A DNA stretch of 64,000 nucleotides from Candidatus Wallbacteria bacterium (lineage in GTDB: Bacteria; Muiribacteriota; UBA9980), in NCBI GenBank assembly GCA_041441465.1, contig JASDSY010000010.1, positions 105,883 through 169,882 on the forward strand. The letters are read 5' to 3'. The translations under genes and the position numbers were made by a program. The notes under the pieces are model-generated. The model did no database searches. It had not been told where the DNA came from and worked only from the letters and a program-made list of their open reading frames with translations. Of the stretch, positions 5,674 to 22,525 are shown piece by piece; the first letter of the stretch is position 1; each line of letters starts with the position of its first letter.

Positions 5674-6324
5674 ATGAGAAGTAAAATAGTTTTATTTTTT
5701 ATGATTTTGACGATATTAATTTCATCAATCCCGGCTAATGCAGCAAGATTGGCCGAAGATAAAGGAAAAGAAGTGAAGCTTGACGCAGGGCAGAAGAAAA
5801 AACTGAACACTTTTTTCAGTAATTTTGCCGAAACATATCTCGAATTTTTCGCTGAAGGCAAAATTAAAAATGAAGAACTGATAAGGTTTGGAATACTGCA
5901 CAATTCAATTAATAAACCGGCTAATATAAAAAAAGTTGATAATTATTACGGTGTTCTGGCTGAAAAAGACGTCGAAACCGCCGCTAAAAAATATTTCGGC
6001 GAAATAAAAATAACAAATAAGTCAATTCAGGATTATGAATATTCGAAAGGCAATTATAAAATTCCTTATGCGGACGGCGAGGCATATAATTTTTCGCAGA
6101 TAGAAAAATTAATCGATATAAGTGATAATTATTATATCGCCTATTTAAATAACTACATTGCTTCTCCAGGTTTTACAGGCGATCCGCATGCTGCAATCGA
6201 TAAATTAAAAAAAGGCGAAGACACTCCGGAATTAAAAGATAAAATAAAAGCCGTAATAAAAAAGGTTGAAGACGGCGGCCAAAGCCGTTATATCTTAATC
6301 GAATATTTAAAAAATCAACTATAA
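5674..6324 (+). CDS. hypothetical secreted protein
   Basis: 216 aa; signal-peptide-like N-terminus MRSKIVLFFMILTILISSIPANAA; strong RBS; no family recognised. Confidence 0.55.
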   Translation: MRSKIVLFFMILTILISSIPANAARLAEDKGKEVKLDAGQKKKLNTFFSNFAETYLEFFAEGKIKNEELIRFGILHNSINKPANIKKVDNYYGVLAEKDVETAAKKYFGEIKITNKSIQDYEYSKGNYKIPYADGEAYNFSQIEKLIDISDNYYIAYLNNYIASPGFTGDPHAAIDKLKKGEDTPELKDKIKAVIKKVEDGGQSRYILIEYLKNQL

Positions 6325-6436
6325 ATTCCGCTCCGTGAATTTATAGTTACTTCATAATCACAGCAAAATAGCATAATTTCGAAATATAAAAACGATATTA
6401 TCTTAAAATAATTTAAGCATTATAAGAGGTAATAAT

Positions 6437-7288
6437 ATGGACGAAAATGATAATATAAACGCCAGCCAGAAGGAAATCGAAGGCCAGGAACATCAAAATT
6501 CAACACTCCGGCAAGAAGTGAAATTTTATATTCCGGAAATTACGAAAAATTGTGAACTTCCTGAAAATATAAAAATCGAGCTGGACACCTTTCTGGAAAC
6601 ATTGCTTAAATATTTATATGGCGGCTGTTTTCTTATAAGCTGTTATTTATTTTATGTAAGTAAATTCGGGCATTATACCGGACGCGGCAATTCAAGACAT
6701 TATATCCCTCCGGACCCGTCAGCTTTTCCTGACGCGCTATGGTTTATGGCCGGAGCTTTTTTATTTTTCATAATCGCATTAAACACCGATAATTATTACA
6801 TTTTAAACACCAAGCGAAAAACAATATATTATCACTTTAAATGCCTTTTCTGGAAATATATAAAACCGAGCCTGACTAACGATAAAATATTTGCAATCGC
6901 GGTAGACTGCAGGGAAAAACATCAAAAAAGCTCAAAATGGTGGGAATATGGAATATGCGCCGTTTCGAACGACGGAAAATTTACCGAATTAAGCGATTTT
7001 AAAAAAGATATTGAAAATCCGAACTGCCTTTCAGAACTGAATCACCAGGCAATGATAATGGCGATGGCGATGCAGTGCAAATTTGCCGAATGCCCTGAAA
7101 AACATTCGCTGCAAGCCGCAATGAACAATAATTCATTAGACCTGAAATATTTCGTGCCGCCGAAAGAAGAACCGCCGCCGCCGGCTCGACCTAAATATGA
7201 CTTCCTGCGGCTGATATTTACCGCTTTCCTGCTGATAACATTAGTCTCGGTAACGTTAATGGGATTAATGCTTTTACTTTGCAAATAG
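6437..7288 (+). CDS. hypothetical membrane protein, Cys-containing
   Basis: 283 aa; hydrophobic segments (CFLISCYLFYV, WFMAGAFLFFIIAL, C-terminal LIFTAFLLITLVSVTLMGLMLLL); RBS agagg; stop codon abuts the stop of the convergent radical SAM gene. Confidence 0.45.
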   Translation: MDENDNINASQKEIEGQEHQNSTLRQEVKFYIPEITKNCELPENIKIELDTFLETLLKYLYGGCFLISCYLFYVSKFGHYTGRGNSRHYIPPDPSAFPDALWFMAGAFLFFIIALNTDNYYILNTKRKTIYYHFKCLFWKYIKPSLTNDKIFAIAVDCREKHQKSSKWWEYGICAVSNDGKFTELSDFKKDIENPNCLSELNHQAMIMAMAMQCKFAECPEKHSLQAAMNNNSLDLKYFVPPKEEPPPPARPKYDFLRLIFTAFLLITLVSVTLMGLMLLLCK

Positions 7289-8365
7289 TTATTTCAGCAT
7301 ATCATACTGGCAATAAAGCAATTCACCGGTTTTTTCATCCCGAAGATGAAGACCGTTACCCTCGCACCAATCGAATACATCGCATTTAGCGCATTTTCCG
7401 GTTTTCATCCATGCGCGGTCGCGCATAACCTGAAATTTATTGTTCCAGCATTCTAAAAAATCGTCTTTATATATATTCCCCTGTATATAATCGGCGCGCA
7501 GGCTCGGACAGGCCGATATGGACCCGTCGGCCAGAACGGACCCTACATTTATGCCGGCGCGGCAGAACATATATCCTTTACGCGCGATATTTTCCATTCT
7601 TCCCAAAAAGCCGTCACAGGCATATTGAAGATCGATCTTGCCCTCGCGCCTGGTGTCGGCGATAAAGTCTATTATATACTTGAGCTGGTTCGACGTGACG
7701 CGCAAAAGGTCGTTCGTCAAAGCGCGGCCTTTCATAAATATATCGAAAAGACGCCATTTTTTTATCCCGATGCCTATCAAAAATTTTTTAATTTCATTAA
7801 GTTCGGTTATATTTTTCTGGGTAACGCATGTAATAGCTTCGCACACAATTTTGGGAAATTTAGACGAATGGGCAAGCGCGTTCGCAGCCGCATCGAATGA
7901 ACGTTCATTCTGCCGCAGCCAGTTATGGCTTTCGCGCAGTCCGTCAAGGCTTATCGAAACGGAATGCATCCCTGAATTCGCGAGCGAATCAAAACGCTCA
8001 TTCGTCAAAAGCATCGCGTTAGTAACAATTCCCCAGGGATAGCCGCGTTTAAAAAGCTCGAAACCGCATTCCTCGAGATCGCTTCGAAGCAGGGCCTCGC
8101 CGCCGGTAATGGCTATAAAAACATTATTCGGATTATACTGCTTTGAAATTATATCCGTTACTTTCAAAAAATCCTGATAAGGCATATCAGGCACCGTGCC
8201 GAGTTTCTGGCAATCGCTCCCGCAGTGACGGCAATTCAGCATACACCGCGAAGTGCATTCCCAGAATAAATAATTCAACTGATGTTTTCTAGTTTCCATC
8301 TTTTTGGCATAACGGAACATTTCAAGCGATATTTTCTTTTGAAAAGGAATATCAGTATAATTCAT
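7289..8365 (-). CDS. radical SAM enzyme with C-terminal SPASM-like Cys cluster
   Basis: 358 aa; CxxxCxxC motif (CMLNCRHC); glycine-rich ITGGEALL; C-terminal CAKCDVFDWCEGNG cluster; RBS gaggt. Confidence 0.7.
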   Translation of the reverse strand: MNYTDIPFQKKISLEMFRYAKKMETRKHQLNYLFWECTSRCMLNCRHCGSDCQKLGTVPDMPYQDFLKVTDIISKQYNPNNVFIAITGGEALLRSDLEECGFELFKRGYPWGIVTNAMLLTNERFDSLANSGMHSVSISLDGLRESHNWLRQNERSFDAAANALAHSSKFPKIVCEAITCVTQKNITELNEIKKFLIGIGIKKWRLFDIFMKGRALTNDLLRVTSNQLKYIIDFIADTRREGKIDLQYACDGFLGRMENIARKGYMFCRAGINVGSVLADGSISACPSLRADYIQGNIYKDDFLECWNNKFQVMRDRAWMKTGKCAKCDVFDWCEGNGLHLRDEKTGELLYCQYDMLK

Positions 8366-8615
8366 ATTATTAACCTCATTTTTACGGACGTGATTACAAA
8401 TATTATTTTATAAACTTTAATATATTATAAAACATCTTTTTATTTTTTTATACTCTTTTTTTGTTTTTTTATTTTTCGAACTTAATCGTAATTTAAGCAG
8501 TCAATATACTGAAAAAATTCATAAATATTTTTTCTGCCCCCGAAACTGCATATTCATTTTAAAATAATTAAAAGCCTACAATTTAAATTAAAGTTGACGC
8601 CATATATCAAATATA

Positions 8616-8644
8616 TTGACGAACATTGTCATTTTTTATATAAT
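8616..8644 (+). promoter_or_regulatory. consensus sigma70-type promoter TTGACG-N17-TATAAT for paralog 1
   Basis: -35 ttgacg 8616-8621, 17-nt spacer, -10 tataat 8639-8644; ggagg RBS at 8663-8667, ATG at 8677. Confidence 0.6.
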
Positions 8645-8676
8645 AGATGCAATTTAAAAATCTGGAGGCATAATCA

Positions 8677-9177
8677 ATGGATTTTATAAAAAAAAGAACT
8701 AAAAATATATTAATAAGCATCATTGCGTTTTTACTTGTAAGTCCGGGTTTTATCGCCGATTATTTGTTTGCGCAAAATAATTTAGTCAATGAAAAAACGG
8801 AAGAAGTAAAGGCAAATAAAATGCCGCTGCCGGAACCGCCGGTTTACGGAATGCCGCCGACGCGTTTTGATCATAACATGCCGGGCCGCAATATTTCGGT
8901 TATAAGCGCCAGGCCGAAAGTCAAAAAGAGCTTTTCAGGAATAATAGTATCCGCCGGCTCAGAAACACCTCTTCCAGGAATGATATTAGAAATACAACAG
9001 CTCAACTCCAGGACAATTACGAGTAAAACCGGAGCTTTCAAATTTCAGGAGCTTTACGCCGAAAAAGATTCGGATAAATTTATCATGACAATAACCAACT
9101 CAGAAGACAGAAGCATTTGCCGGACGATGGAAATAGAGTTAACTAAAAGCGGCAGTACTATTGAAGTTTCATTATAA
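8677..9177 (+). CDS. small secreted protein, paralog 1, with C-terminal carboxypeptidase-regulatory-like beta-sandwich motif
   Basis: 166 aa; signal peptide KNILISIIAFLLVSPGF; C-terminal GIIVSAGSETPLPGMILEI...TGAFKF pattern; ends KSGSTIEVSL. Confidence 0.6.
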   Translation: MDFIKKRTKNILISIIAFLLVSPGFIADYLFAQNNLVNEKTEEVKANKMPLPEPPVYGMPPTRFDHNMPGRNISVISARPKVKKSFSGIIVSAGSETPLPGMILEIQQLNSRTITSKTGAFKFQELYAEKDSDKFIMTITNSEDRSICRTMEIELTKSGSTIEVSL

Positions 9178-9223
9178 TATCAGAATTCAAGTATTTTTAA
9201 TTAAATTGAAAACAATAAAAATA

Positions 9224-9252
9224 TTGACTGACACCGATAATTGTAATATAAT
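9224..9252 (+). promoter_or_regulatory. consensus sigma70-type promoter TTGACT-N17-TATAAT for paralog 2
   Basis: -35 ttgact 9224-9229, 17-nt spacer, -10 tataat 9247-9252; ggagg RBS at 9284-9288. Confidence 0.6.
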
Positions 9253-9293
9253 GATTTTTAAAACAAAGCATTATGAAAAATTCGGAGGAAATC

Positions 9294-9749
9294 ATGATAG
9301 AATTTATAAAGATAAAAGCTAAAAATATGTTAATAAGCATTATAGCGTTTTTACTTGTAAGCCCGTGTTTACTGACCGATTATTTATTCGCCGGCGATTC
9401 GGCTTTAAAGGAAAAAGTAAATATGGCAAACGAAGATATGGCAGCCACTAAATATGGCGGCCCGGCAATGAATTTTGACGAAGATATAATATTGGAAAAA
9501 CTTGTAGAATTATTCGGCGTGGTTACATCAAAGGAAACGAAAAAACCTGTCGAAGGCATTATTATAAAAATCCAGGATTCAAAAGCAAAAGCTGTAACCG
9601 GTAAAGACGGCATGTTTAAATTCCCTCCATGCCCGCCCAGATTAAAAAAAGTTACACTGGAAGTAAAAGACGCCAAAGACGAAAAACTTCTGCAGACCAA
9701 AGAAGTGGAGCTTAAAAATGCCGGCTCTACAATCGAAATTTCACTTTAA
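9294..9749 (+). CDS. small secreted protein, paralog 2 (start moved to RBS-supported ATG)
   Basis: ORF track starts at 9273, but ggagg sits 6 nt upstream of the ATG at 9294, giving MIEFIKIKAKNMLISIIAFLLVSP parallel to paralog 1; ends NAGSTIEISL. Confidence 0.6.
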   Translation: MIEFIKIKAKNMLISIIAFLLVSPCLLTDYLFAGDSALKEKVNMANEDMAATKYGGPAMNFDEDIILEKLVELFGVVTSKETKKPVEGIIIKIQDSKAKAVTGKDGMFKFPPCPPRLKKVTLEVKDAKDEKLLQTKEVELKNAGSTIEISL

Positions 9750-9887
9750 TCCCAAATAATTAAATAAATAATAATACTTCATAAAAGTTATTTTTTAATA
9801 AATATTCCACATTATCAAAATTAATGAAAATTTAAAAACGGCTGTTTCATTACAAAAAATTTATAAATACAAACATCATAATAAAAT

Positions 9888-9924
9888 AAAAATCCGCCCG
9901 GTAAAAATTTCGAGCGGATTTTTA
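9888..9924. terminator. bidirectional terminator hairpin between convergent genes
   Basis: 10-bp stem aaaaatccgc / gcggattttt with A-run before and T-run after. Confidence 0.55.
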
Positions 9925-10002
9925 TTTTTATTCAACCCTAAAATATAACAGACGAATAAGGTATTTTCAGGTTAATACAGAAATATTTTTATTTCCTATT
10001 TC

Positions 10003-11418
10003 CTATTTCTTATTTTCTATAATGCCGTATGCCGCTTTTATAATATCATTGAGCCTGTCCGGAAATACTTTATATAGTTTTTTAGGCTCGTCGCATTTGA
10101 CATAATTAGCTTTATCGAAATCCCGCGGAATAATGAACATCGCTTCGTCTGTGCCGCCTGAAAACGTGCCAAGCCTTATTTCCATTGTCGCAGGAGAAAA
10201 TTTAGAGAGCAATTCGGCATTAGTGGTGTCGCGGTCTATAGACTGCAGCATGCAATTAGCTATAAGCTGAGTCAAATTTTCAACTTTCGCCTTATCTATT
10301 ACCGCCTCTAAAGTCGAATCGCCGACACGAGTTATTTTCCAGTCGCTATTCGTCTTTTTTACCTCGACCGATACGGTGCCGGCCGGAATAAGTCTGACGC
10401 TGTTAACTTCCGAAGCCGCAAAATCATTAGTCAACTTAGGCATAAAATCCATGGCCGATTTTTTTAATTCGGCCTTAAAATCCCTGTCAAGCATAAGGAT
10501 TTCTTTTTTATAATTGGATTTAACCGCTATGAGGTTTTCAGACGTGCTGTCACGGCCGACATTAATTACCGTCATTACCTCGGCGGTTGCGCCGGTACTG
10601 AGTTTTAATATTATTTCAGCCGATGTTTCGCTTACCAGATTATTTTTATACGAAGCATCGGTCTCGTCTATAATTTTTTTTGCGGAAGCGGCCTGTATTT
10701 TATTAATGATCTCGTTAATCATCTTAGTATCGCAGCGGCCGTTCTCCGGCGATTCCATGCTCCATATCCCGGCTTTATTCGTAAAAGAATATTTTTCTTC
10801 GGCCGTCGTGCCGGGATATGAAATTTCAAAATGCTTTATGTTTGCCGGAATAAAAGAAGCGATTTTTTTATCGCGGAATTCAAAAAGGTTTTTATTCGCG
10901 TCATTGTAAAGCCCCGACTCAACCAGAAATATATCTTTGCTTTCAGGAAATTTCACGTAGCATAATTCGCCGGACGGATTTTTGTTTCCATAACAAAAAG
11001 TAATTTCGGCGCTTTCAGCCTTCAAAGTAACCTTTATCTCATTGGTCCCAAAGCCGAAATCCGCCATGTTAGATATCTGATCGGCCGTAATTTTAGAATC
11101 GATTCTGGCGAGCTTGATTTTATTCGTCATTTCATTGACAGCGCTCTGATCTAAAAGCGCATCAAGCGGTTTTTCAAGCATCCATTCTTTCTTTTCGTTT
11201 TTCTTTGAAAAAACAATTTCAGTCAAAGCGCCGCCGGATTTTGTATAATCAGGCTTCTGGATTTTCAGATGAGTCAGTCCTTCAAAGTTAAAGTTAGCCG
11301 CCAATTGTGCTTTCTTGCTTTCCTCGGTTTCAACCGGCGCCTGCCTGAGATTATTCGCGTAGAACCCGAGCGCGATAAGAACAATAAGAGCGACAATAGT
11401 TTTTATATATTGATTCAT
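10003..11418 (-). CDS. DUF4340-like protein (GldG-associated)
   Basis: 471 aa; N-terminal membrane anchor IVALIVLIALGFYA; last gene of the ABC/GldG operon, the usual position for this family. Confidence 0.5.
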   Translation of the reverse strand: MNQYIKTIVALIVLIALGFYANNLRQAPVETEESKKAQLAANFNFEGLTHLKIQKPDYTKSGGALTEIVFSKKNEKKEWMLEKPLDALLDQSAVNEMTNKIKLARIDSKITADQISNMADFGFGTNEIKVTLKAESAEITFCYGNKNPSGELCYVKFPESKDIFLVESGLYNDANKNLFEFRDKKIASFIPANIKHFEISYPGTTAEEKYSFTNKAGIWSMESPENGRCDTKMINEIINKIQAASAKKIIDETDASYKNNLVSETSAEIILKLSTGATAEVMTVINVGRDSTSENLIAVKSNYKKEILMLDRDFKAELKKSAMDFMPKLTNDFAASEVNSVRLIPAGTVSVEVKKTNSDWKITRVGDSTLEAVIDKAKVENLTQLIANCMLQSIDRDTTNAELLSKFSPATMEIRLGTFSGGTDEAMFIIPRDFDKANYVKCDEPKKLYKVFPDRLNDIIKAAYGIIENKK

Positions 11419-11440
11419 AAAGTATCACTCCCGTAAAAAT

Positions 11441-13090
11441 TTATGACCTGTAATACCACACGGTAAATCCTGTCAATATAACGATACCAGGCACCAAGAG
11501 TATAACTATAAACCATACGTTATTGGCCGCTTTCTGATTGAAATCGAGCGTAAACGGCACCGGCGCCTTAGGCGTAACCGCTATGAGATCTTCGATATCG
11601 GCCAGGTAACTGAACATATTCAGCGCAAGATTAAAATTTCCCTGTAATCCTATAAATTCGTTACGCATAAAATTCGAAGTGCCGGCCGCAATAATGCGCA
11701 TTTCTTTTTGTTTGGAACGACGGCCGTTAGCGTCGGATACGATCGCGTTTTCACCGGTGCCTGAATGTATTTCAGCGTTAGCGACAGTTTTTGAAACCGC
11801 TGTTACGACAGTTATCGGCCCTTTTATATCGCGGTCAGAATCAAATTTCACGTTTTTATCGGTCAGATAAGTCGTATCAGCAAACGAGTCAGGGCTGGTC
11901 TGAACAAGCGCAGCCGCAGTCATGCCCGGCGGCATATTTTTAACGGAATTCACGGCCCTGGCAAGCGGATAAAAAGTAGCCATATTAAAACCTTTTACCA
12001 CAGGATGGTCACTGTTATAAATCATTCCGAGCGGCATGGTATAATCGCCGAGTCCGAGCATCTTCAATGCCGGTTTCATATCTATTATAATGTTTTTACC
12101 GGGCTCGATTCCGTATTTTGAAAGCAGCCTTTCCATGCTGGCCGAAGGCGCCTGCGGCGGGAAATTCACGTCAACTAAAAAGAGCGCATGACCGCCGTTA
12201 TCAAGATATTTAGAGATCATCGCTTCCTCAGTTTCCATAAGCTCAATCTGCGGTCCTGCAATTACGAGCGCGCTGCAATTGCCCGGCACTTCCTGGCGCT
12301 GAAGCAGGTTGAGTTTTTGCAGCTCGAAATTCTTGTTAGCCAATTCCTGCTTCATAAGGCTCATGCCGCGTTTATCATCCGAATTAATGTCGGCTTCGTT
12401 ATGCCCCTCAAGAAAATATATGACGTTTTTTTCCTTCGAAGTAGCCCTTATTATAGCGTTAGTCAATTCCTGCTCGCCGAAAAAATTCTCGAGTTTTTCC
12501 GTTTTGCCTTCATATTTAACGACAGTGATGCCGTCGCGAGTTATGTTAAATTCCTTGGCGAGAAGCGGTTTTTTGTTCATATCCACAAATTCATACTTGA
12601 ACTTCGGGTTGTTATATGAATACTGCTTCATAAGATCGGAAAAATGCCTTCTGACTTCAGGAATATCACGATAGAAAAGATAAACGTTGATATCGCTTTT
12701 AAGCCTCGCTATCGCCTTGACCGACTGCTCGGCCAGCGAATATCTTTTATTCGACGTCATATCCCACTGCTTCGTATCGCGCCCCGCAATAAAATTAAGA
12801 AGCACGACTATAGCTATTATAATAGCGCCATAAATCAACGCGTTAGTCGAATATTTAAATGAACGTGTCCTCATTTTATTAGCGATATAATTGAAATTAT
12901 AAATCGTGATACCGAGCGCCATGATAAGGCCGGCTGCAGCCAGGGCCGCCGGAACCGTTGTCGATTCAGCCATAAAATATCCGAAGAAACCTGAAAAAAT
13001 AAGCAGCGCGGTTAATATTTTCAAAGTTGCCATTAATTTAGTGTTGTTATCGCCGTTAGAGTTTTTTATTTCACGAATATCGTTATTCAT
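11441..13090 (-). CDS. GldG-like ABC transporter auxiliary component
   Basis: 549 aa; N- and C-terminal TM segments (C-terminal VWFIVILLVPGIVILTGF); sits between an ABC-2 permease and the DUF4340-like gene. Confidence 0.55.
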   Translation of the reverse strand: MNNDIREIKNSNGDNNTKLMATLKILTALLIFSGFFGYFMAESTTVPAALAAAGLIMALGITIYNFNYIANKMRTRSFKYSTNALIYGAIIIAIVVLLNFIAGRDTKQWDMTSNKRYSLAEQSVKAIARLKSDINVYLFYRDIPEVRRHFSDLMKQYSYNNPKFKYEFVDMNKKPLLAKEFNITRDGITVVKYEGKTEKLENFFGEQELTNAIIRATSKEKNVIYFLEGHNEADINSDDKRGMSLMKQELANKNFELQKLNLLQRQEVPGNCSALVIAGPQIELMETEEAMISKYLDNGGHALFLVDVNFPPQAPSASMERLLSKYGIEPGKNIIIDMKPALKMLGLGDYTMPLGMIYNSDHPVVKGFNMATFYPLARAVNSVKNMPPGMTAAALVQTSPDSFADTTYLTDKNVKFDSDRDIKGPITVVTAVSKTVANAEIHSGTGENAIVSDANGRRSKQKEMRIIAAGTSNFMRNEFIGLQGNFNLALNMFSYLADIEDLIAVTPKAPVPFTLDFNQKAANNVWFIVILLVPGIVILTGFTVWYYRS

Positions 13091-13093
13091 TTA

Positions 13094-13879
13094 TTACAGC
13101 CTCCATTTCGTCGATTCTAATGAAAGTGAGGTTAAGAAAAGCCCTATAAAGGTAAAACTTAAATAATACATCATATCTTTCGAGTCAATTACGCCTTTCG
13201 CGAATGTCTCAAAATGTTCCATAATCGAAATCGACTTTAAAAATTCGCCAAGAACGCCTTCTGCGCTATACGATGCCCAGCCTATCACCCAGAATAAAAG
13301 CAGTACGCCGAAGCCAAGGACTGCCGAAACCACCTGATTTTTGCTTAATGTAGAGGTGAAATTTCCGACTGCGGCAAAAGCCATACCTATAAGAAACAAT
13401 CCGAAGTATGACGTAAATAGCGGCCCTGTTTCGACATTTCCATATACGTATAAAATCGCCGGATAGGTAAAGGTAAGAGCCAGCATCAACGCAAAAACGC
13501 CGACCGACGCGAAAAATTTTCCAAGCACGATAGAAATATGAGAAACCGGAGAAGTGAGCAAAAGCTCGATAGTTCCGGTCTTAAACTCTTCCGAATATAA
13601 CCGCATTGTAAGAAGCGGCATTATAAGAAGTATGACGACGCTGGCGTTATATACAAGCGGCCTCAAAACGGCGTCGGCGATATTGATTTTCGATAATTGC
13701 TCCATCGCCTGCGGATTGCCGGATGTCTTCATGTAATTGACGTAATTTGCGAATGAAACAATGCCCATATAGAAAAAATAACCTGTCAGTATCAAATATA
13801 CGGCTATTATCATATAAGCGATTGGCGAAGTGAAAAAAAGCGACATTTCTTTTTTAAAAATCGACCATGTATTACGCAT
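13094..13879 (-). CDS. ABC-2 family permease (GldF-like)
   Basis: 261 aa polytopic membrane protein; overlaps the ATPase gene by 8 nt. Confidence 0.6.
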   Translation of the reverse strand: MRNTWSIFKKEMSLFFTSPIAYMIIAVYLILTGYFFYMGIVSFANYVNYMKTSGNPQAMEQLSKINIADAVLRPLVYNASVVILLIMPLLTMRLYSEEFKTGTIELLLTSPVSHISIVLGKFFASVGVFALMLALTFTYPAILYVYGNVETGPLFTSYFGLFLIGMAFAAVGNFTSTLSKNQVVSAVLGFGVLLLFWVIGWASYSAEGVLGEFLKSISIMEHFETFAKGVIDSKDMMYYLSFTFIGLFLTSLSLESTKWRL

Positions 13880-14831
13880 TTACCGATTCCTCCTTGGTTA
13901 TAAGCTTAAGGAAAATATCCTCGAGGGAAGTTTCCTGCGTGCGGAGCTCGTGTATGTTAAGCTTTATTTCCAAGAGCCTTGCTGCCGCAAGCGGAGCGAT
14001 TTCAAAATTAGCGGAAGTTTCAATCAATATTTTTCTGGCGTTTTTATGAATCTCATCGTTTATTATATTAACGGATTTTATTCCGGTGATAGGTTCGAGC
14101 GAAGTTTTGATTTGTTCACCTGTCGCCTCACCCGTTATCGTTATTTCCATACGTTCATCTTTCGAAACGGCTTTCGTAAGGTTTGCGGTAGCGTCTTCGG
14201 CAATTATCCGGCCGTGATTTATTATGACGACACGCGAGCATGTTATAGACACCTCAGGCAGAATATGTGTCGAAAGTATAACGGTATGGGCGTCCTTTAA
14301 ATTTTTAATAAGCGTCCTGACCTCGTTTATCTGGAGCGGATCGAGGCCTACCGTCGGTTCGTCAAGTATCAGAAGTTTTGGATTATGAACCAGCGCCTGC
14401 GCCAGTCCAACCCTTTGCTGATACCCTTTCGAAAGATGCCCTATCAACTTGCCGGCCACATTAGAAATATTTGTTTTTTCCATGGCAAGTTCAACAGCCT
14501 TATTAATTTCACGAACAGGAATGCCCTTAATTTCTCCGACGAATTTCAGGTACGAACGCACGCTCATCTCCGGATAGACCGGCGGTTTTTCCGGTAGATA
14601 ACCTATAAGGCGTTTGGCATTTATGGCGTCATCGTAAATATCGTGGCCGTCAACTTTGACAGTGCCGGCCGTCGCCGAAAGAAAACCGGTAATAATGCGC
14701 ATCGTAGTAGTTTTACCGGCGGCATTCGGCCCAAGAAAACCCATGATTTCACCCTGTTTGACATTAAACGTAACATTCGAAATCGCAGTGAAATCGCCAT
14801 AGTTTTTCGTAAGATTTTGAACTTCGATCAA
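13872..14831 (-). CDS. ABC transporter ATP-binding protein (GldA-like)
   Basis: 319 aa; Walker A GPNAAGKTT, ABC signature LSKGYQQR, Walker B LLILDEPTVGLD. Confidence 0.8.
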   Translation of the reverse strand: MIEVQNLTKNYGDFTAISNVTFNVKQGEIMGFLGPNAAGKTTTMRIITGFLSATAGTVKVDGHDIYDDAINAKRLIGYLPEKPPVYPEMSVRSYLKFVGEIKGIPVREINKAVELAMEKTNISNVAGKLIGHLSKGYQQRVGLAQALVHNPKLLILDEPTVGLDPLQINEVRTLIKNLKDAHTVILSTHILPEVSITCSRVVIINHGRIIAEDATANLTKAVSKDERMEITITGEATGEQIKTSLEPITGIKSVNIINDEIHKNARKILIETSANFEIAPLAAARLLEIKLNIHELRTQETSLEDIFLKLITKEESVNA

Positions 14832-15188: not shown

Positions 15189-17588
15189 ATGCGCAATTTT
15201 ATTAACGAACTTCTAAGAATAATAGAATCGAACAAGTTAAATGTTAACTCAGAAGAGCTGTCAACCCAGCTCAAGCTTGTTATAAGCGAATACAACAAAA
15301 GCATTGAGTACTTAAAATTCTATGAAAGTATTATCCATTCACAAACGGAGATGATCTGCCGTTATCTGCCGGACCTCACACTTACGTTCGTAAATGACGC
15401 TTACTGTCACGCTCGCTGCCAGAAACGCGAGCAGCTTTTGGGCAAGAAAATAACGGACTTTATAGATGAAGACTGCCGCGAAAAATTTATCGAATATGTC
15501 GAGCATTTCGGGAAATTCAGAATTTCTAATTCCATAGAGCAAAAAATAACATTAGATAACGGCGTTACTAAATGGGAACTCTGGGGAGACAACGCGGTAT
15601 TTGACGAATATGGGCGCATAGTGGAATTTCAGGCCGTCGGGCGCGACATAACCGAGCAGAAAAACACTGAAATCGAACTTGAAAAATCCAGGGCCCGCCT
15701 CAACTCAATCTTTAACAACAATTTTTTATCGATAATACTCATTAACAAAGATTTAAAAATTTGTGAATTCAACAGAATCGCTGAAGAAAGAATTAAAAGG
15801 TTATACGGCCTTTCGATAAAAATGGAAAGCAATTTTTACGATTATGTGCCGGCCGAGCTTGTAAATTTTTATGATGAAGTTTTAAAAAACGTATTTAAAG
15901 GCGATAATGTCATATTTGAAATGCATATAAACGATACCGCCGGAAATAAAACATACTGGTTTACCAATAACATTCCAATCCATAATGCCGACGGCACGAT
16001 ATTCGGAGCATGCCTGACATCCATCGAAACCACTAAATTTAAAGAATTCGAAAGCCAGTATAAATTATTCGAAGAAAACGTTAAACAAATGTTGAGTAAC
16101 TCCAACCAGGCTTTTATTGTCGTCGGGTTAGACAATAAAATAAAAGTGTTCAACGAATCGGCAAACGACATATCGCTCAAGGTAATCGGCCGGTCGCTTC
16201 AAACCGAAACGCTGCTTATCGAGCTCATACCGGAAAAAAAGATAAAAATAATAACCGAAATGCTGTTAAACGTTAAAGACGGCAAATTTAAAAGCGCCGA
16301 AGCCGAATTCAAAGACTTGTCCGGCCAAAAATATTGGTGGAACTTTAATTTTTCGCCTATCTTCGATTCGGAAGGTAAAATAAACAGCATCTTTATTTCA
16401 ATAATAGACATAACTGAAAAAAAAATGCTTGAGCAGGAGCTTGTCAAATTAAACTCCGAGCTTGAACTAAGGGTTACAGAACGCACCGCCGAACTTGAAA
16501 ATGCCAATAAAAAGCTGCGCGCCGAAATCATGCTCCGCGAAAAAGCCGAAAAAGAAGTTGTAGCCGTTAAGAATGAACTAATTAAAAAATATTCATTTTA
16601 TGACCTTGTAGGAAAAAGCCCGCAAATGCAAGGCATAATGGATATGCTTAACGTAATATCTGAAAATGACTGCAACATTTTAATTGAAGGGCCGTCCGGC
16701 ACCGGAAAGAGCCTTATCGCTAAAATAATTCATAATTTATACGACCCGGATAATAAAAAACCTTTTATAGTTTTAAACTGCGGAGCTTTTCCTGAAACGC
16801 TCCTCGAATCAGAATTATTCGGCTATGTCAAAGGCGCATTCACAGGCGCTAATCGTGATAAAGCCGGAAAATTCGAGGCCGCTAACGGCGGTACAATATT
16901 TTTGGATGAAATAGCCGAAATGCCGATTCAGCTTCAGGTAAAATTATTACGCGTTATCGAAGATAAATGCTTCGAACCGCTCGGATCGAACGTTACCTGC
17001 CGCGTAAACGCCAAAATAATAGCAGCCACCAATAAAGACATTCCGGAACTTATAAAACAGAATAAATTCCGGCTCGACTTATATTACCGGCTGAAAGTGG
17101 CAAATATAAAAATACCTTCGTTATCTGAAAGACGCGAAGATATTGATCTTTTAATCGATTACTTTATCGTAAAATTTAACGATAAATATAAAAAAAATAT
17201 AAAGGGCCTTTCAAAAGAAGTATATGAGTTTTTTATGATATATGATTTTCCCGGCAATATCAGGGAACTTGAAAATATTTTCAACGCGTCCTTTATATTT
17301 TGTAACGGCGATTACATTAACTCCAGACACATTCCAGCGGAATACAGGCAAATTATCGATGAAAAAATGCTCGAAGATAAAAATTATCATGCAGGCGGCA
17401 TTGAAACTATATCAGTCGACGAATCGCCTTTCAATTACGAAAATATCACTACAATTGACCTTAGCGAAAAACAATGCATTTTAGAAACCCTGAAACAATT
17501 TAACTTCAACCGCACGCTCGCAGCGCAGCGACTAAAAATCGACCGAACAACATTATGGCGAAAAATGAAAAAATATAATCTTCTATAA
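15189..17588 (+). CDS. sigma54-dependent transcriptional activator with N-terminal PAS-type sensor region, no receiver domain
   Basis: 799 aa; AAA+ Walker A GPSGTGKS, GAFTGA motif (YVKGAFTGANRDK), C-terminal Fis-type HTH (AAQRLKIDRTTLWRKM). Confidence 0.8.
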   Translation: MRNFINELLRIIESNKLNVNSEELSTQLKLVISEYNKSIEYLKFYESIIHSQTEMICRYLPDLTLTFVNDAYCHARCQKREQLLGKKITDFIDEDCREKFIEYVEHFGKFRISNSIEQKITLDNGVTKWELWGDNAVFDEYGRIVEFQAVGRDITEQKNTEIELEKSRARLNSIFNNNFLSIILINKDLKICEFNRIAEERIKRLYGLSIKMESNFYDYVPAELVNFYDEVLKNVFKGDNVIFEMHINDTAGNKTYWFTNNIPIHNADGTIFGACLTSIETTKFKEFESQYKLFEENVKQMLSNSNQAFIVVGLDNKIKVFNESANDISLKVIGRSLQTETLLIELIPEKKIKIITEMLLNVKDGKFKSAEAEFKDLSGQKYWWNFNFSPIFDSEGKINSIFISIIDITEKKMLEQELVKLNSELELRVTERTAELENANKKLRAEIMLREKAEKEVVAVKNELIKKYSFYDLVGKSPQMQGIMDMLNVISENDCNILIEGPSGTGKSLIAKIIHNLYDPDNKKPFIVLNCGAFPETLLESELFGYVKGAFTGANRDKAGKFEAANGGTIFLDEIAEMPIQLQVKLLRVIEDKCFEPLGSNVTCRVNAKIIAATNKDIPELIKQNKFRLDLYYRLKVANIKIPSLSERREDIDLLIDYFIVKFNDKYKKNIKGLSKEVYEFFMIYDFPGNIRELENIFNASFIFCNGDYINSRHIPAEYRQIIDEKMLEDKNYHAGGIETISVDESPFNYENITTIDLSEKQCILETLKQFNFNRTLAAQRLKIDRTTLWRKMKKYNLL

Positions 17589-17632
17589 TTTATTTAGTTT
17601 TAAGAATTTCAGGCATAAACTAAATACATTTC

Positions 17633-17663
17633 ATGTTGCAATATGTTGCATTTTAAATGTTGC
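17633..17663 (+). promoter_or_regulatory. three direct repeats of ATGTTGC, candidate activator binding site
   Basis: atgttgc at 17633, 17643 and 17657, lying 60-90 nt upstream of a sigma54-like element. Confidence 0.3.
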
Positions 17664-17724
17664 TTTTAAAAAAAAGCGACATTTTTTTTATTTTAAAAGC
17701 ATATTTTATAACCCTTTTTAAACA

Positions 17725-17740
17725 TGGCACAAAAATTGTC
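17725..17740 (+). promoter_or_regulatory. sigma54-like -24/-12 element TGGCAC-N5-TTGTC (non-canonical -12)
   Basis: tggcacaaaaattgtc; -24 GG present, -12 reads GT instead of GC; about 40 nt upstream of the proposed cheA start. Confidence 0.25.
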
Positions 17741-17779
17741 CTTATATTTCTTACGAAAAGAAAAGGTCTGGTGATAAAT

Positions 17780-20020: not shown

Positions 20021-20024
20021 TATA

Positions 20025-20549
20025 ATGGCGGTGAGTATAATGACTATGGAAAACGCTCAAATTTATAACCATCCAACACAGGAAGCCGTTCAAATCAAAC
20101 CTGAACTGATTAAGCTGCTGACATTCATATTGAACGGAGAAGAATATGCGGTTGATATATTAAAAGTTCAGGAAATAATAGGCATCATTGAAATAACGCC
20201 GGTGCCTAAAACTAAGCCTTATATTAAAGGCGTTATAAATCTCAGGGGTTATATAATACCGGTAATAGACCTCAGAAAATTATTTGAGATGGCGGAAATA
20301 AAGTACACTGATTTAACCTGCATAGTAATAATTAAATCAGGCGGAATAACAATGGGGCTTATCGTCGATATGGTTTCTGACGTAATCGACGCCGGCACCG
20401 CTAATCTCCAAAAAACTCCCGATTTCGGCATTTCAGTTAAAACAGCATTCATTAATTCAATCGTAAAATCCGAACATAAGCCAAAATACTTAATAAATCT
20501 TGAAAAAATAATTGGAAGCGATGAAAATGCCGTAAATGGAAATACTTAA
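20025..20549 (+). CDS. cheW: chemotaxis coupling protein CheW
   Basis: 174 aa; CheW-like domain (FILNGEEYAVDILKVQEII...INLRGYIIPVIDLR). Confidence 0.8.
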   Translation: MAVSIMTMENAQIYNHPTQEAVQIKPELIKLLTFILNGEEYAVDILKVQEIIGIIEITPVPKTKPYIKGVINLRGYIIPVIDLRKLFEMAEIKYTDLTCIVIIKSGGITMGLIVDMVSDVIDAGTANLQKTPDFGISVKTAFINSIVKSEHKPKYLINLEKIIGSDENAVNGNT

Positions 20550-20620
20550 AATTTAAAATTAAATAACCAATACATGATAATAAAAATATAATAAAGTTAA
20601 CTATATAAGGGGGACTAAAC

Positions 20621-22525
20621 ATGAAAATTAAAATAAGCACAAAATTGATATCGAGCTTTATAGTGATCGCTCTAATAGCGGGATTAATAGGTATAATAAG
20701 CCGGAATAATCTTTTAGAAATCGATGGGAATTATACAAATCTCATCGAAAAATATATGCGCCCGCTTGTTAAAATCGAGAAAATCGACACCAACTTTCAG
20801 CATATAAGGGTATATTTAAGAGATTTGATAATGGAAACAAACAAGGACAAAATATCGAAAATCAAAGATAATATCACCGCATTAGACGAAGAAAATCAAA
20901 AACAGATAAAAGAAGTCGATCAAACTCTTTCTGATAATTCGAATATAAAAACAATAAATGAAATTTATGATTCATTTGTCAGCGAATACAATAGTTATAT
21001 GAGTGATGCAAATAAAATTAAAAATATTGTTAACGCCGGTCAGGAGAGCGAAGCGATAGCCATTTTAAACAGCAGCGCATTTATCGAAAAAGTAAATAAA
21101 GCTGACGAATATTTAAATAACTTGAACAAACTAGCTAACGCTGAAATTACCAGAATAGAAAATATAAACGAAGCGGAAGTTCATTCGACCCTCAGTACGA
21201 TCCTCTGGATCATCGTATCCGGAATAATTTTGGCGGTCATATTGGGGTTATTTATTTCAAGAGGCATCTCAAAAATAATATTGAATTTGAATAACGAAGT
21301 AAGGGCGATAATAAATTCGATTTTAGAAGGCAATCTTAAATTCAGGGGCGACTACCAAAAAATTAATTTTGAATTCCAGGACATAATAAAAGGCATTAAC
21401 GATATAATGGACGCTTATGATAAGCCTGTAAATGAAGCGCTCGCAACACTCGAAAAGATTTCAGAAAATGATTTAACGGTAAGAATGACAGGCAACTACA
21501 AAGGCGATTTCTTAAAAATTAAAGAATCGATCAATAAGGCTTTTGAAACGCTTGACAAGACGCTCCAAAATATACTCGCCAGCTCGGAACAGGTATCTGC
21601 ATCAGCGGTTCAAATCAGCGACGGCAGTCAGTCACTGGCAGCAGGCGCATCTGAGCAGGCAAGTTCTCTCGAAGAAATTTCAAGCAGCCTCCATGAAATG
21701 AACTCAATGGCTAAGCAAAATGCGGCAAATTCCAAAGAAGGCCAGAACCTTGCATTAATTACAAGAAAAAGCTCGGACCACGAAGTTGAAAGCATGAAAG
21801 AGCTTTCGAAAGCTATCGAAAAAATTAAAGAATCAGCCAGCAACACGGCGAAAATAACGAAAACGATAGAAGAAATAGCGTTCCAGACGAACCTTCTGGC
21901 CCTTAACGCGGCCGTAGAAGCGGCAAGAGCTGGAGACGCCGGCAAAGGATTCGCCGTTGTAGCCGAAGAAGTAAGGAATCTTGCAATGAGGAGCGCGGAA
22001 GCTGCTAAAAACACCGCGCAGCTTATAGAAGAATCGGTTAAAGACACTGTTTATGTAGTAAATATAAGCAATGACGCATTAAAAGGCCTGGCAGAAATCA
22101 GCTCGCATATAAATAAAGTCAACGAATTCATGTCCGAAATCGCCGCCGCATCTGAACAGCAGAGCCAGGGAATCGACCAGATCAACGCGGGCGTTTCTCA
22201 GTTAAATCAGGTTACGCAACAAAATGCAGCATTTTCTGAAGAATCAGCAGGATCGGCCGAAGAGTTGAATTCACTATCACGCGAAATGTTTTCAATGATA
22301 TTGAACTTCAAATTAACAGGAAGCGGCCAGATCAACTCAAAAAATTACGTAAACGCAATAGCCAGGCAAGATAAAAAAACAAGCGGAGTCAATGAAAAAA
22401 GACCGATAATAGACGCAGTACACAATATAAAAAAACTCGATAAATTTAAATCGAACACTATAAAAAAATCTCCTGAATCAATAATTCCATTTGATGATGA
22501 CAATGACATACTGAAGCAATTTTAA
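20621..22525 (+). CDS. methyl-accepting chemotaxis protein
   Basis: 634 aa; N-terminal TM, HAMP-like region, conserved signalling motif [34 protein letters not shown]; RBS aaggggg. Confidence 0.85.

What the first reader, a model, noticed from the sequence alone, without database searches (positions are those of the whole stretch)
8590..9749. Tandem paralogous secreted proteins, each with its own near-perfect consensus promoter
Seen: the genes at 8677-9177 and 9294-9749 share an almost identical signal-peptide region at protein and DNA level (ISIIAFLLVSP) and a conserved C-terminal beta-sandwich-like motif with tail (K/N)(S/A)GSTIE(V/I)SL, while the middle of each protein is divergent. Each has its own TTGAC(G/T)-N17-TATAAT promoter and ggagg RBS. 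Inference: recent duplication with diversification of the central region, and likely strong independent expression. This is the pattern of surface or secreted effector/adhesin-type families under diversifying selection, although function is unknown.
Basis: seen in the sequence. Interest (0 to 1): 0.42.

Follow-up and report, generated by a model that had tools for sequence, protein, structure and literature searches.

The report
Paired partners of a radical-SAM enzyme
The two neighbouring small exported proteins are real, old duplicates, and are distant non-lipoprotein relatives of the "radical SAM-associated lipoprotein" family that sits beside one conserved, uncharacterised radical-SAM enzyme in several hundred bacterial species, so they are probably that enzyme's targets rather than fast-evolving adhesins.

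Summary
Genes A (8677-9177) and B (9294-9749) are paralogues: 34% identical overall, 72% over the first 32 residues. Each has an 11/12 sigma-70-type promoter and a GGAGG ribosome-binding site, and each ends in a transthyretin-like beta-sandwich.

The duplication is old: A-type and B-type orthologues sit in tandem in two other Wallbacteria-like lineages. Orthologue dN/dS is 0.1-0.25 in every region, so there is no sign of diversifying selection.

The missed point is the divergent upstream gene (7289-8365, minus strand). It is a radical SAM/SPASM enzyme of NCBIfam TIGR04133, whose defined partner family is TIGR04134, "radical SAM-associated putative lipoprotein". A and B are remote homologues of TIGR04134 (hhalign 96.6-98%). 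An HMM of the A/B family picks out the gene directly upstream of the enzyme in 46 of 80 loci from other phyla. Together with a TIGR04134-type HMM, 70 of 80 loci have a partner.

All partners share Y-G-x-P-x3-[F/Y] in a disordered stretch. Some partners have only the motif and no beta-sandwich.

My best reading is that A and B are exported substrates of the enzyme, modified at this motif. That step is inferred, not shown. The system has no experimental characterisation in the searched literature.

The parts
7289..8365 (-). Radical SAM/SPASM enzyme (358 aa), transcribed divergently from gene A; NCBIfam TIGR04133 'rSAM_w_lipo'
   Evidence: TIGR04133 scores 501.8 bits against a cutoff of 425. Pfam finds Radical_SAM at 36-196 and SPASM at 268-329. 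The CxxxCxxC motif (C41, C45, C48) can be read in the translation. There is no room for an N-terminal peptide-recognition domain. It is 70-76% identical to the enzymes beside family members in L011, L013 and L015, and 46-57% identical to all but one of the 80 fetched enzymes of other phyla (L083, a closer relative, is 76%).
8616..8644 (+). Promoter of gene A: TTGACG-N17-TATAAT
   Evidence: 11/12 consensus match. It is one of 8 such sites in the window, against 2.3 expected. L006 has TTGCGT-N18-TATAAT at the equivalent place (read).
8664..8668 (+). GGAGG ribosome-binding site of A, 8 nt before the ATG
   Evidence: Read directly from the sequence.
8677..9177 (+). Gene A, 166 aa (P0001; NCBI hypothetical protein QMC67_03960, Candidatus Wallbacteria MAG)
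   Evidence: The AlphaFold model has an N-terminal helix at 2-40, a low-confidence linker at about 41-80 and a beta-sandwich at 81-165.
8677..8772 (+). A: N-terminal basic and hydrophobic segment (residues 1-32), either a signal peptide or a signal anchor
   Evidence: MDFIKKRTKN, then ILISIIAFLLV, then SPGFIADYLFA followed by Q. The Kyte-Doolittle mean is 3.4 over 11 residues and 2.05 over 19. N10-V21 is nearly invariant in six sequences.
8845..8868 (+). A: family hallmark motif Y57-G-M-P-P-T-R-F64
   Evidence: Y57 and G58 are invariant in all alignments. The pattern YG.P.{3}[FY] occurs in only these two real ORFs across all six frames of the window. pLDDT is below 50 here.
8917..9174 (+). A: transthyretin-like (CarboxypepD_reg-like) beta-sandwich, ending in TIEVSL
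   Evidence: It aligns with the TIGR04134 domain in hhalign.
9224..9252 (+). Promoter of gene B: TTGACT-N17-TATAAT
   Evidence: 11/12 consensus match. TATTGACTG and ATATAAT are invariant in the window, L003 and L006, while the rest of the spacer has diverged.
9284..9288 (+). GGAGG ribosome-binding site of B, 5 nt before the ATG
   Evidence: CGGAGG is conserved in three lineages.
9294..9749 (+). Gene B, 151 aa (P0002; QMC67_03965)
   Evidence: The AlphaFold model has a helix at 2-32, a low-confidence linker and a beta-sandwich at 74-150.
9453..9476 (+). B: hallmark motif Y54-G-G-P-A-M-N-F61
   Evidence: TIGR04134 matches residues 51-141 weakly (E 0.031).
9510..9746 (+). B: transthyretin-like beta-sandwich, ending in TIEISL
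   Evidence: PF13715 scores 28.3 bits. Foldseek matches PDB transthyretin-like folds.
9884..9927 (.). Hairpin flanked by A and T runs, between convergent gene B and the DUF4340 gene; probable bidirectional terminator
   Evidence: The fold gives z = -3.8, with the hairpin present in both the MFE and centroid structures. Similar sequence is present in L003 and L006. The consensus scan found no terminator-like site between A and B, although that scan also missed this hairpin.

Best explanation
A and B are two old paralogues of a small exported protein. This protein is the genomic partner, and most likely the substrate, of the radical SAM/SPASM enzyme encoded divergently at 7289-8365.

Each protein has three parts:
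- a conserved N-terminal basic and hydrophobic segment (Sec signal peptide or membrane anchor);
- a disordered linker carrying the invariant motif Y-G-x-P-x3-[F/Y];
- an ~80-residue transthyretin-like beta-sandwich.

They are remote, non-lipoprotein homologues of NCBIfam TIGR04134. TIGR04134 proteins lie directly upstream of TIGR04133 enzymes in hundreds of species, mostly Bacteroidota among the 80 loci fetched, with Fibrobacterota, spirochaetes and others.

Proposed mechanism, inferred by analogy with anaerobic sulfatase-maturating enzymes and QhpD:
1. The enzyme has no separate peptide-recognition domain, so it recognises the short linear YGxP motif directly. The conserved N-terminal segment may also contribute.
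2. It modifies the pre-protein in the cytoplasm.
3. The protein is then exported to the periplasm or envelope of this diderm organism.
4. There the beta-sandwich acts as a binding or scaffold module.

Shown: paralogy, architecture, promoters, homology to TIGR04134, and the cross-phylum gene pairing.

Inferred: that A and B are substrates, that the motif is the modified site, the chemistry of the modification, and the cellular destination.
For: Identity of the enzyme:
- It is a confident TIGR04133 member, 501.8 bits against a cutoff of 425.

Homology of A and B to the partner family:
- hhalign of the A/B family against 18 proteins found upstream of such enzymes gives probability 96.6%, E 6.5e-10. 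With the wider family it gives 98%, E 2.7e-13. Both alignments place YGxP on EYGxP and cover the beta-sandwich. Of those 18 proteins, 8 were scanned against NCBIfam and 7 pass the TIGR04134 cutoff.
- In all, 8 of 10 upstream proteins tested pass the TIGR04134 cutoff, at 46-116 bits.

Gene pairing across phyla:
- An HMM built only from Wallbacteria-type proteins, searched against all 3220 ORFs of 80 enzyme loci from other phyla, hits 53 ORFs in 46 loci.
- With a TIGR04134-type HMM added, 70 of 80 loci have a partner. 99 of 102 hits lie within 1.5 kb upstream of the enzyme on the same strand.
- No third gene is conserved around the pair.
- In Wallbacteria-like contigs, enzymes 70-76% identical to the window's lie within a few kb of family members that are only about 22-27% identical to A.

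The motif is the constant element:
- Y and G are invariant in every alignment.
- 18 of 102 partners carry 2-4 copies of the motif.
- Some have an extra C-terminal copy (L034, L087).
- Motif-only partners without a beta-sandwich exist (L011 8972-9229, L013 6524-6781, L020, L035).
- The motif lies in a low-confidence, probably disordered stretch.

Other points:
- Tandem copies are usual for this system: 23 of 70 loci have 2-4.
- SPASM enzymes commonly mature co-clustered ribosomal precursors or exported proteins (PMC3531188).
Against: - A and B score far below the TIGR04134 cutoff. B scores 14.3 bits against 39.8, and A gives no hit.
- They lack a lipobox. Cys25 of B sits in a VSPC context and is not conserved.
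- The enzyme is divergent from the pair rather than downstream in one operon, and A and B have their own promoters.
- No conserved Cys, Ser or Lys accompanies the motif, so none of the known SPASM chemistries (thioether, formylglycine, Lys-Trp and similar) can be assigned.
- The motif might simply be a structural cap of the domain.
- Three related contigs show a family member without the enzyme in the stretch available (L009, L100, L101).
- There is no expression, proteomic or biochemical data.
- The nearest solved structure to the enzyme is only a weak match, BlsE at E 3e-10.
Confidence: 0.6

Rival explanations
1. A and B are functionally linked to the radical SAM/SPASM enzyme but are not its substrates. 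The exported beta-sandwich protein might bind, carry or present a small molecule or peptide made by the enzyme, or might act as a scaffold or immunity partner.
For: The gene pairing is equally compatible with this reading. Transthyretin-like domains are generic binding modules. In the NCBIfam scan, the families scoring next after TIGR04133 and TIGR04053 are tetrapyrrole-modifying enzymes (AhbD, NirJ), although peptide maturases also appear.
Against: Motif-only partners with no beta-sandwich still sit directly upstream of the enzyme, so the binding domain is dispensable and the short motif is not. The motif is repeated in 18 of 102 partners, which is typical of modification sites. The enzyme is cytoplasmic and the partner is exported, so no other gene would link a cytoplasmic product to an exported binder.
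Confidence: 0.2
2. One reading: independent, highly expressed secreted or surface effector or adhesin paralogues from a recent duplication, under diversifying selection, with no functional tie to the neighbouring genes.
For: Both genes have strong promoters and ribosome-binding sites. They carry an export signal and a beta-sandwich. Gene A is a divergence island between close lineages (69% nt identity against 87-91% for neighbours; dN 0.21 against 0.01-0.08). The small proteins evolve faster than the flanking genes.
Against: The duplication predates three lineages. Orthologue dN/dS is 0.10-0.25 in all regions. A's excess divergence is also synonymous (dS 1.0 against 0.34-0.44), so it is not driven by positive selection. 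The family is homologous to a conserved lipoprotein family that is tied to an enzyme across phyla.
Confidence: 0.1
3. A and B belong functionally with the convergent downstream operon (DUF4340, GldG-like ABC auxiliary protein, ABC-2 permease, ABC ATPase; 10003-14831, minus strand), for example as exported cargo or an accessory of that transporter.
For: This synteny is conserved in the Wallbacteria-like contigs L001-L006 and L013/L014.
Against: The orientation is convergent, with a terminator hairpin in between. None of the 80 enzyme loci from other phyla shares these neighbours; the largest conserved neighbour cluster covers 5 loci. In L013 the enzyme lies between the family member and the operon.
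Confidence: 0.05

Closest known systems
NCBIfam/TIGRFAMs pair TIGR04133 (rSAM_w_lipo, radical SAM/SPASM protein) and TIGR04134 (lipo_with_rSAM, radical SAM-associated putative lipoprotein). Both are 'hypothetical equivalogs' defined computationally.
   Same: The window's enzyme is a confident TIGR04133 member. A and B share four things with TIGR04134: the Y-G-x-P-x3-[F/Y] motif just before the domain, the same transthyretin-like beta-sandwich, a size of about 150 aa, and the frequent occurrence of tandem copies. Profile-profile homology is 96.6-98%.
   Different: A and B fall far below the family cutoff. They have no lipobox Cys. They carry a longer, unusually conserved N-terminal hydrophobic segment, and a 20-25-residue linker before the motif plus a 12-22-residue insert after it. 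They end in TIE(V/I)SL. They are transcribed divergently from the enzyme, each from its own promoter.
Anaerobic sulfatase-maturating enzymes (anSME, radical SAM/SPASM) acting on the (C/S)-x-P-x-R motif of exported sulfatases, and QhpD acting on QhpC before export (from established knowledge).
   Same: In both cases a SPASM enzyme without a dedicated leader-recognition domain is paired with a full-size exported protein that carries a short, proline-containing linear motif. This is the working analogy for cytoplasmic modification before export.
   Different: There is no sequence relationship beyond the superfamily. The motif here has no Cys or Ser to oxidise and no Cys for thioether formation. 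The chemistry is unknown and untested.
RiPP precursor families matured by radical SAM/SPASM enzymes, with multi-copy precursors beside the maturase (PMC3531188).
   Same: Both have several paralogous substrate-like genes next to one SPASM enzyme, a conserved N-terminal region, a repeated short motif, and some motif-only short ORFs of 71-87 aa.
   Different: A and B are 151-166 aa with a folded domain and an export signal. No protease or dedicated exporter gene is conserved nearby.
CarboxypepD_reg-like / transthyretin-like domains (Pfam PF13715, PF13620), for example the SusC N-terminal extension and the carboxypeptidase D transthyretin-like domain.
   Same: The fold of the C-terminal 80 residues is the same.
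   Different: The Pfam scores are below the gathering thresholds. The fold is generic and does not indicate a function.

Membership tests
TIGR04134 (radical SAM-associated putative lipoprotein) | HMM score at or above the curated cutoff (39.8 bits) | tested here: not met
   B scores 14.3 bits (E 0.031), its orthologue P0003 scores 15.5 bits, and A and its orthologues give no hit. Control proteins upstream of enzymes in other phyla score 46-116 bits.
TIGR04134 (radical SAM-associated putative lipoprotein) | Encoded next to a TIGR04133 radical SAM/SPASM gene | tested here: met
   The enzyme at 7289-8365 lies 311 nt from A and scores 501.8 bits. The orientation is divergent, whereas 99 of 102 partners in other loci lie upstream on the same strand.
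TIGR04134 (radical SAM-associated putative lipoprotein) | Lipoprotein signal peptide with a lipobox Cys | tested here: not met
   A has Gly at the equivalent position. B has VSPC, but its orthologues have Tyr or Phe there. No dedicated signal-peptide predictor was available.
TIGR04134 (radical SAM-associated putative lipoprotein) | Y-G-x-P-x3-[F/Y] motif preceding a transthyretin-like domain (feature derived here from 18-102 members) | tested here: met
   The motif is invariant or nearly invariant in alignments A3, A6, A8 and A9. hhalign places it in register.
TIGR04133 (radical SAM/SPASM protein), for the neighbouring gene | HMM above cutoff, CxxxCxxC motif and a C-terminal SPASM Cys-rich domain | tested here: met
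   501.8 bits against 425. Pfam finds Radical_SAM and SPASM. C41, C45 and C48 and the C-terminal cysteines can be read in the translation.
Pfam CarbopepD_reg_2 (PF13715) | Score at or above the gathering threshold (32.2 bits) | tested here: not met
   A scores 19.3 bits and B 28.3 bits. Fold-level similarity is nevertheless supported.
Sec-type cleavable signal peptide | Basic n-region, hydrophobic h-region of 7-15 residues, small residues at -3 and -1 of the cleavage site | tested here: inconclusive
   The n- and h-regions are clear, and L/I-F-A is followed by Q/G/K and is conserved. However, the hydrophobic stretch up to residue 32 could also serve as a membrane anchor (Kyte-Doolittle mean 2.05 over 19 residues; modelled as one helix at 2-40). 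No predictor or experiment was available.
RiPP precursor peptide | Short peptide (usually under 100 aa) with leader and core, plus a protease or exporter in the cluster | tested here: not met
   The proteins are 151-166 aa with a folded domain. No conserved third gene is present.
Family under diversifying selection | dN/dS above 1, or unalignable central regions among orthologues | tested here: not met
   dN/dS is 0.10-0.25 per region by the Nei-Gojobori method, for window against L003 and L006.

The most novel reading that the evidence does not exclude
The Y-G-x-P-x3-[F/Y] motif is the site of a so far undescribed radical SAM/SPASM-catalysed modification of full-size exported proteins. The modification would be made in the cytoplasm before export by the TIGR04133 enzyme family, which has relatives in at least 552 GTDB species, including host-associated Bacteroidales. 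The Wallbacteria variant shows that the motif works independently of the lipobox and of the beta-sandwich. It also suggests that the unusually conserved, gene-converted N-terminal segment doubles as the enzyme's recognition leader.
Probability: 0.4. Interest if true: 0.75.

Novelty: new variant of a known kind. Interest (0 to 1): 0.5.

Why it matters
The tandem pair on its own is ordinary. Its value lies in what it points to: a two-gene module of a radical SAM/SPASM enzyme and a YGxP-motif exported protein. The module is widespread, self-contained and experimentally uncharacterised.

The Wallbacteria variant, the motif-only ORFs and the repeated motifs narrow the constant element down to an eight-residue stretch. 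That makes the question "what does this enzyme family do?" directly testable by co-expression and mass spectrometry.

If the motif is modified, this would be a new protein-level post-translational modification of envelope proteins in many anaerobes, including gut Bacteroidales.

Tried and rejected
- **More family members in the window.** tblastn of A, B and the N-terminal peptide finds only A and B. The motif pattern occurs in no other real ORF.
- **Scan of GTDB species genomes with the A/B alignment.** 47 pattern matches, none confirmed. The metagenome scan returned only the two contigs already known.
- **Word-indexed search of 5.8 billion proteins.** It found only 4 close relatives. The exhaustive HMM search was needed to find about a dozen small relatives.
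- **NCBIfam on A and B.** Nothing above cutoff.
- **Lipoprotein reading.** Rejected because there is no conserved lipobox Cys.
- **Diversifying selection.** Rejected.
- **Link to the DUF4340/GldG/ABC operon.** Rejected as clade-specific synteny.
- **A third conserved gene in the module.** None found.
- **L083, the closest GTDB relative of the enzyme (76%).** Its enzyme gene is split into two ORFs and no partner was found, so it is uninformative.
- **Rfam scan of 8200-10100.** Only sub-threshold matches on the terminator hairpin.
- **Fold search.** Only generic transthyretin-like folds, with no functional lead.
- **PDB sequence search with the enzyme.** Only weak matches: BlsE, Tes and SkfB.
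- **Literature searches.** Searches for TIGR04133, TIGR04134, and SPASM with lipoprotein found no characterisation.
- **Known SPASM chemistries.** Thioether, formylglycine and three-residue cyclophane were considered from general knowledge. None is assignable, because no Cys or Ser is conserved and position +2 is Gly in B.
Full report
**1. The observation**

The window is 39.8% G+C. The database search attributes both proteins to a Candidatus Wallbacteria metagenome-assembled genome. Wallbacteria are treated as diderm Terrabacteria in bioRxiv 10.1101/2021.05.31.446380.

ORFs at 8677-9177 (A, 166 aa) and 9294-9749 (B, 151 aa) are present as described.

- BLASTP of A against B gives 34% identity, E 8e-30.
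- Both contain ISIIAFLLVSP, and both end in GSTIE(V/I)SL.
- Identity between A and B falls from 72% aa and 82% nt over the first 32 codons to 29% aa in the linker and 33% aa in the C-terminal domain.
- Each gene is preceded by an 11/12 sigma-70-type promoter, at 8616-8644 and 9224-9252, and by GGAGG.
- Only eight sites of this quality occur in the 64 kb, against 2.3 +/- 1.4 in composition-matched simulated sequences.
- In the A-B spacer, the -35 box, the -10 box, the GGAGG and the ATG are the only blocks conserved across three lineages. This is good comparative evidence that B's promoter is real.
- The consensus scan found no terminator-like site between A and B.
- A hairpin flanked by A and T runs at about 9884-9927 separates B from the convergent DUF4340 gene. 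The scan missed it, so the absence of a terminator between A and B is only weakly shown.

**2. Architecture**

Pfam gives sub-threshold CarboxypepD_reg-like hits for the C-terminal half of both proteins. The AlphaFold models agree with each other:

- an N-terminal helix (residues 2-40 in A, 2-32 in B);
- a low-confidence linker;
- a seven-strand beta-sandwich, with block-mean pLDDT up to 93 in A.

Foldseek against the PDB finds only generic transthyretin-like modules: usher C-terminal domains, the carboxypeptidase D transthyretin-like domain, the SusC NTE domain and the cellulosomal X-module.

The N-terminus has a basic n-region, an 11-12-residue hydrophobic core, a Pro, and a conserved (L/I)-F-A site. 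This fits a Sec signal peptide. A 19-residue window is also hydrophobic enough for a membrane anchor, so I could not decide between the two.

**3. Age of the duplication and selection**

The word-indexed search of 5.8 billion proteins found only four close relatives. Their contigs carry the same tandem pair, followed by the convergent DUF4340 and GldG-like genes. Translating the upstream partial genes gives A-type orthologues, so both A and B have orthologues in L003 (a close lineage) and L006 (more distant). The duplication therefore predates these lineages.

- Between A and B, synonymous differences are near saturation outside the 5' end (pS 0.66-0.68). In the first 32 codons pS is 0.40.
- Orthologue dN/dS is 0.10-0.25 in the N-terminal, linker and domain regions of both genes. 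This is purifying selection throughout, and the central regions align normally among orthologues.
- The 5' similarity is partly maintained by gene conversion. In L003, the B copy is identical to the A copy over 41 nt. It shares two A-type synonymous states (ATC, ATT) and a lineage-specific Ser-to-Cys change, whereas B in the window and in L006 has ATT ATA.

Between the window and the L003 lineage, nucleotide identity is:

| Region | nt identity |
|---|---|
| Gene A after the signal region | 69% |
| A-B spacer | 48% |
| Gene B | 87% |
| DUF4340 gene | 91% |

Synonymous divergence (dS) is 1.0 for A, against 0.40 for B, 0.34 for DUF4340 and 0.44 for the GldG-like gene. Because synonymous sites are affected too, this looks like replacement by, or retention of, a divergent allele rather than positive selection. 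It rests on a single pair of lineages.

**4. The neighbouring gene changes the picture**

The divergent upstream gene (7289-8365, minus strand) is a radical SAM/SPASM protein. It scores 501.8 bits on NCBIfam TIGR04133 'rSAM_w_lipo', against a cutoff of 425. NCBIfam pairs this family with TIGR04134, 'radical SAM-associated putative lipoprotein'. TIGR04134 is the family matched by most of the six A/B-family members, but only two of them hit it (B and its orthologue P0003, E 0.014-0.03). A more distant relative, P0099, also hits it weakly (E 0.006). All are far below the cutoff.

The exhaustive HMM search of 1.84 billion representatives found about a dozen further small proteins of 116-180 aa that match end to end, plus many large CarboxypepD_reg repeat proteins. 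Their alignment shows invariant Y57, G58, G88, P98 and G119 (A numbering), and a consensus KYGGPPxP(F/Y)D.

Contexts of such relatives:

- L011, L013/L014 and L015 carry enzymes 70-76% identical to the window's within a few kb.
- The small proteins in those contigs are only about 22-27% identical to A.
- L013 and L011 also encode 85-aa proteins that consist of a hydrophobic helix and KYGPPRxSFDKK, with no beta-sandwich.

**5. Test across phyla**

The 80 best loci are mostly Bacteroidota. Fibrobacterota and Chitinivibrionales, spirochaetes, Phycisphaerae, Marinimicrobia and Kapaibacteria are also represented. All but one are 46-57% identical to the window's enzyme.

| Search against all 3220 ORFs of at least 50 aa in these 80 loci | Result |
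|---|---|
| HMM built only from the Wallbacteria-type family | 53 ORFs in 46 loci, almost all ending at the start of the enzyme gene |
| Adding an HMM of the upstream proteins | 102 ORFs in 70 of 80 loci |
| Position of those 102 hits | 99 lie within 1.5 kb upstream on the same strand |
| Loci with 2-4 tandem copies | 23 of 70 |

Several of the ten loci without a hit are truncated at the contig end, or have a short upstream ORF carrying only a lipobox and the motif.

- Eight of ten upstream proteins tested pass the TIGR04134 cutoff.
- Profile-profile comparison of the A/B family with these proteins gives probability 96.6% (E 6.5e-10), and 98% (E 2.7e-13) with the wider family. Both alignments place YGxP on EYGxP and cover the beta-sandwich.
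- No other gene is conserved around the pair; the largest neighbour cluster covers 5 of 80 loci.

The conserved unit is therefore a two-gene module of enzyme and YGxP protein or proteins. A and B are remote, non-lipoprotein homologues of the partner.

**6. The constant element is the motif**

Among the 102 partners, the motif consensus is E-Y-G-(T/V/S/M)-P-x-A-(D/E)-(F/Y)-x-(I/V)-K-G.

- 18 proteins have two to four copies of the motif.
- L034 and L087 have an additional copy at the extreme C-terminus.
- L020, L035, L031 and the 85-aa proteins carry the motif without the domain.
- In the window, YG.P.{3}[FY] occurs in no real ORF other than A and B across all six frames.
- In the models of A and B the motif lies in low-confidence linker.

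**7. Mechanism: which steps are shown and which are inferred**

[quoted passage not shown] They are often co-clustered with the ribosomally made substrate they modify (PMC3531188).

The enzyme here has only about 35 residues before the radical SAM core, so it has no room for a separate peptide-recognition domain. From established knowledge, anaerobic sulfatase-maturating enzymes and QhpD are SPASM enzymes that modify a short motif in a full-size protein before its export.

By analogy, I propose that the enzyme modifies the YGxP motif of the A and B pre-proteins in the cytoplasm, and that the proteins are then exported. I rate the functional link between the enzyme and A/B at about 0.8. I rate the specific substrate-at-the-motif model at about 0.5.

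The chemistry is unknown. No Cys, Ser or Lys is conserved with the motif, and position +2 is Gly in B, so the thioether, formylglycine and three-residue cyclophane routes do not fit.

The unusually conserved N-terminal segment is invariant from N10 to V21 across six proteins that are otherwise 37-68% identical to A. It may have a role beyond export, such as enzyme recognition or a specific membrane interaction. This is speculation.

**8. Comparison with known systems, and novelty**

The enzyme is a member of TIGR04133. A and B fail the membership test for TIGR04134 on HMM score and on the lipobox. They meet it on gene pairing, motif and fold, and they are demonstrably homologous. I therefore file them as a new variant of a known, computationally defined, uncharacterised system. 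The variant features are:

- no lipid anchor;
- an extended linker;
- a TIE(V/I)SL C-terminus;
- divergent gene order relative to the enzyme, with independent strong promoters.

Searches of the paper library for TIGR04133, TIGR04134, and SPASM combined with lipoprotein found no experimental work. Work in subscription journals could have been missed.

**9. Verdict**

The sequence observation is correct. The evolutionary interpretation (recent duplication, diversifying selection, adhesin or effector) is mostly not supported.

The most useful result is that the pair belongs to a widespread module of a radical SAM/SPASM enzyme and a YGxP-motif protein, and that the likely target site is now narrowed to eight residues.

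Interest is moderate. The pair itself is ordinary, but the module is an accessible, unsolved enzymology problem.

Noticed in passing
L011 642-4898; L013 3418-6513; L015 2362-6543; L100 3374-7525; L101 3097-7415: In five Wallbacteria-like contigs, a giant ankyrin-repeat protein (860-1271 aa) ends exactly where a small YGxP-family gene starts, with abutting or overlapping stop and start codons. This suggests translational coupling. No ankyrin protein was found among eight of the window's large ORFs that were scanned against Pfam.
   Followed up: partly
L011 8972-9229; L013 6524-6781; L020 4762-4977; L035 354-599; L031 4722-4985: Short ORFs of 71-87 aa lie directly upstream of the radical SAM/SPASM gene. 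They carry only a signal, lipobox or hydrophobic helix plus the YGxP motif, with no beta-sandwich.
   Followed up: partly
window 8773-9293 compared with L003: Gene A after its signal region and the A-B spacer form a divergence island between close lineages: 69% and 48% nt identity, against 87% for B and 91% for DUF4340. Synonymous divergence is also raised (dS 1.0 against 0.34-0.44). This suggests allele replacement by recombination, but only one pair of lineages was available.
   Followed up: partly
L003 3-43 and 669-709 (5' ends of the A and B copies): A gene-conversion tract. The B copy of L003 is identical to its A copy over 41 nt. It shares two A-type synonymous states and a shared Ser-to-Cys change that B orthologues in the window and L006 lack.
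   Followed up: yes
window 9884-9927: An A-run, GC stem and T-run hairpin between convergent genes, probably a bidirectional terminator. It was missed by the consensus terminator scan. Similar sequence is present in L003 and L006.
   Followed up: partly
window 9273-9293: An in-frame ATG 21 nt upstream of B's start would give a 158-aa product. The GGAGG lies inside this extension, and the orthologues and the NCBI protein start at the downstream ATG, so 9294 is preferred.
   Followed up: yes
window 8594-8599: A second TTGACG lies 22 nt upstream of the -35 box of A's promoter. No matching -10 box is present at a consensus distance.
   Followed up: no
L083 5127-6019: The closest GTDB relative of the enzyme (76% identity, uncultured bacterium) has the gene split into two overlapping ORFs, from a frameshift or assembly error. 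No YGxP partner was found within 5 kb. An ankyrin-repeat protein lies at 7839-9554.
   Followed up: partly
L054 3503-4642 and 6237-6428 (minus strand): This Bacteroidales locus carries a second paralogous radical SAM/SPASM gene and a 63-aa Cys-rich ORF with the sequence CRCEYGG.
   Followed up: no
window 5674-7288: Two proteins give no Pfam or NCBIfam hit. One is 216 aa with a signal-like N-terminus. The other is 283 aa with hydrophobic segments and a Pro-rich stretch, and its stop codon abuts the stop codon of the radical SAM gene. The same arrangement occurs in other samples of this organism (L097, L098).
   Followed up: partly
window 15189-22525; 50677-54954 (minus strand); 60109-63474: Other content of the window: a sigma-54 activator with PAS domains, a CheA-like kinase and a methyl-accepting chemotaxis protein in a row; a 1425-aa protein with six Big_5 Ig-like domains; and an 1121-aa PLD-nuclease/SNF2 helicase fusion.
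   Followed up: no
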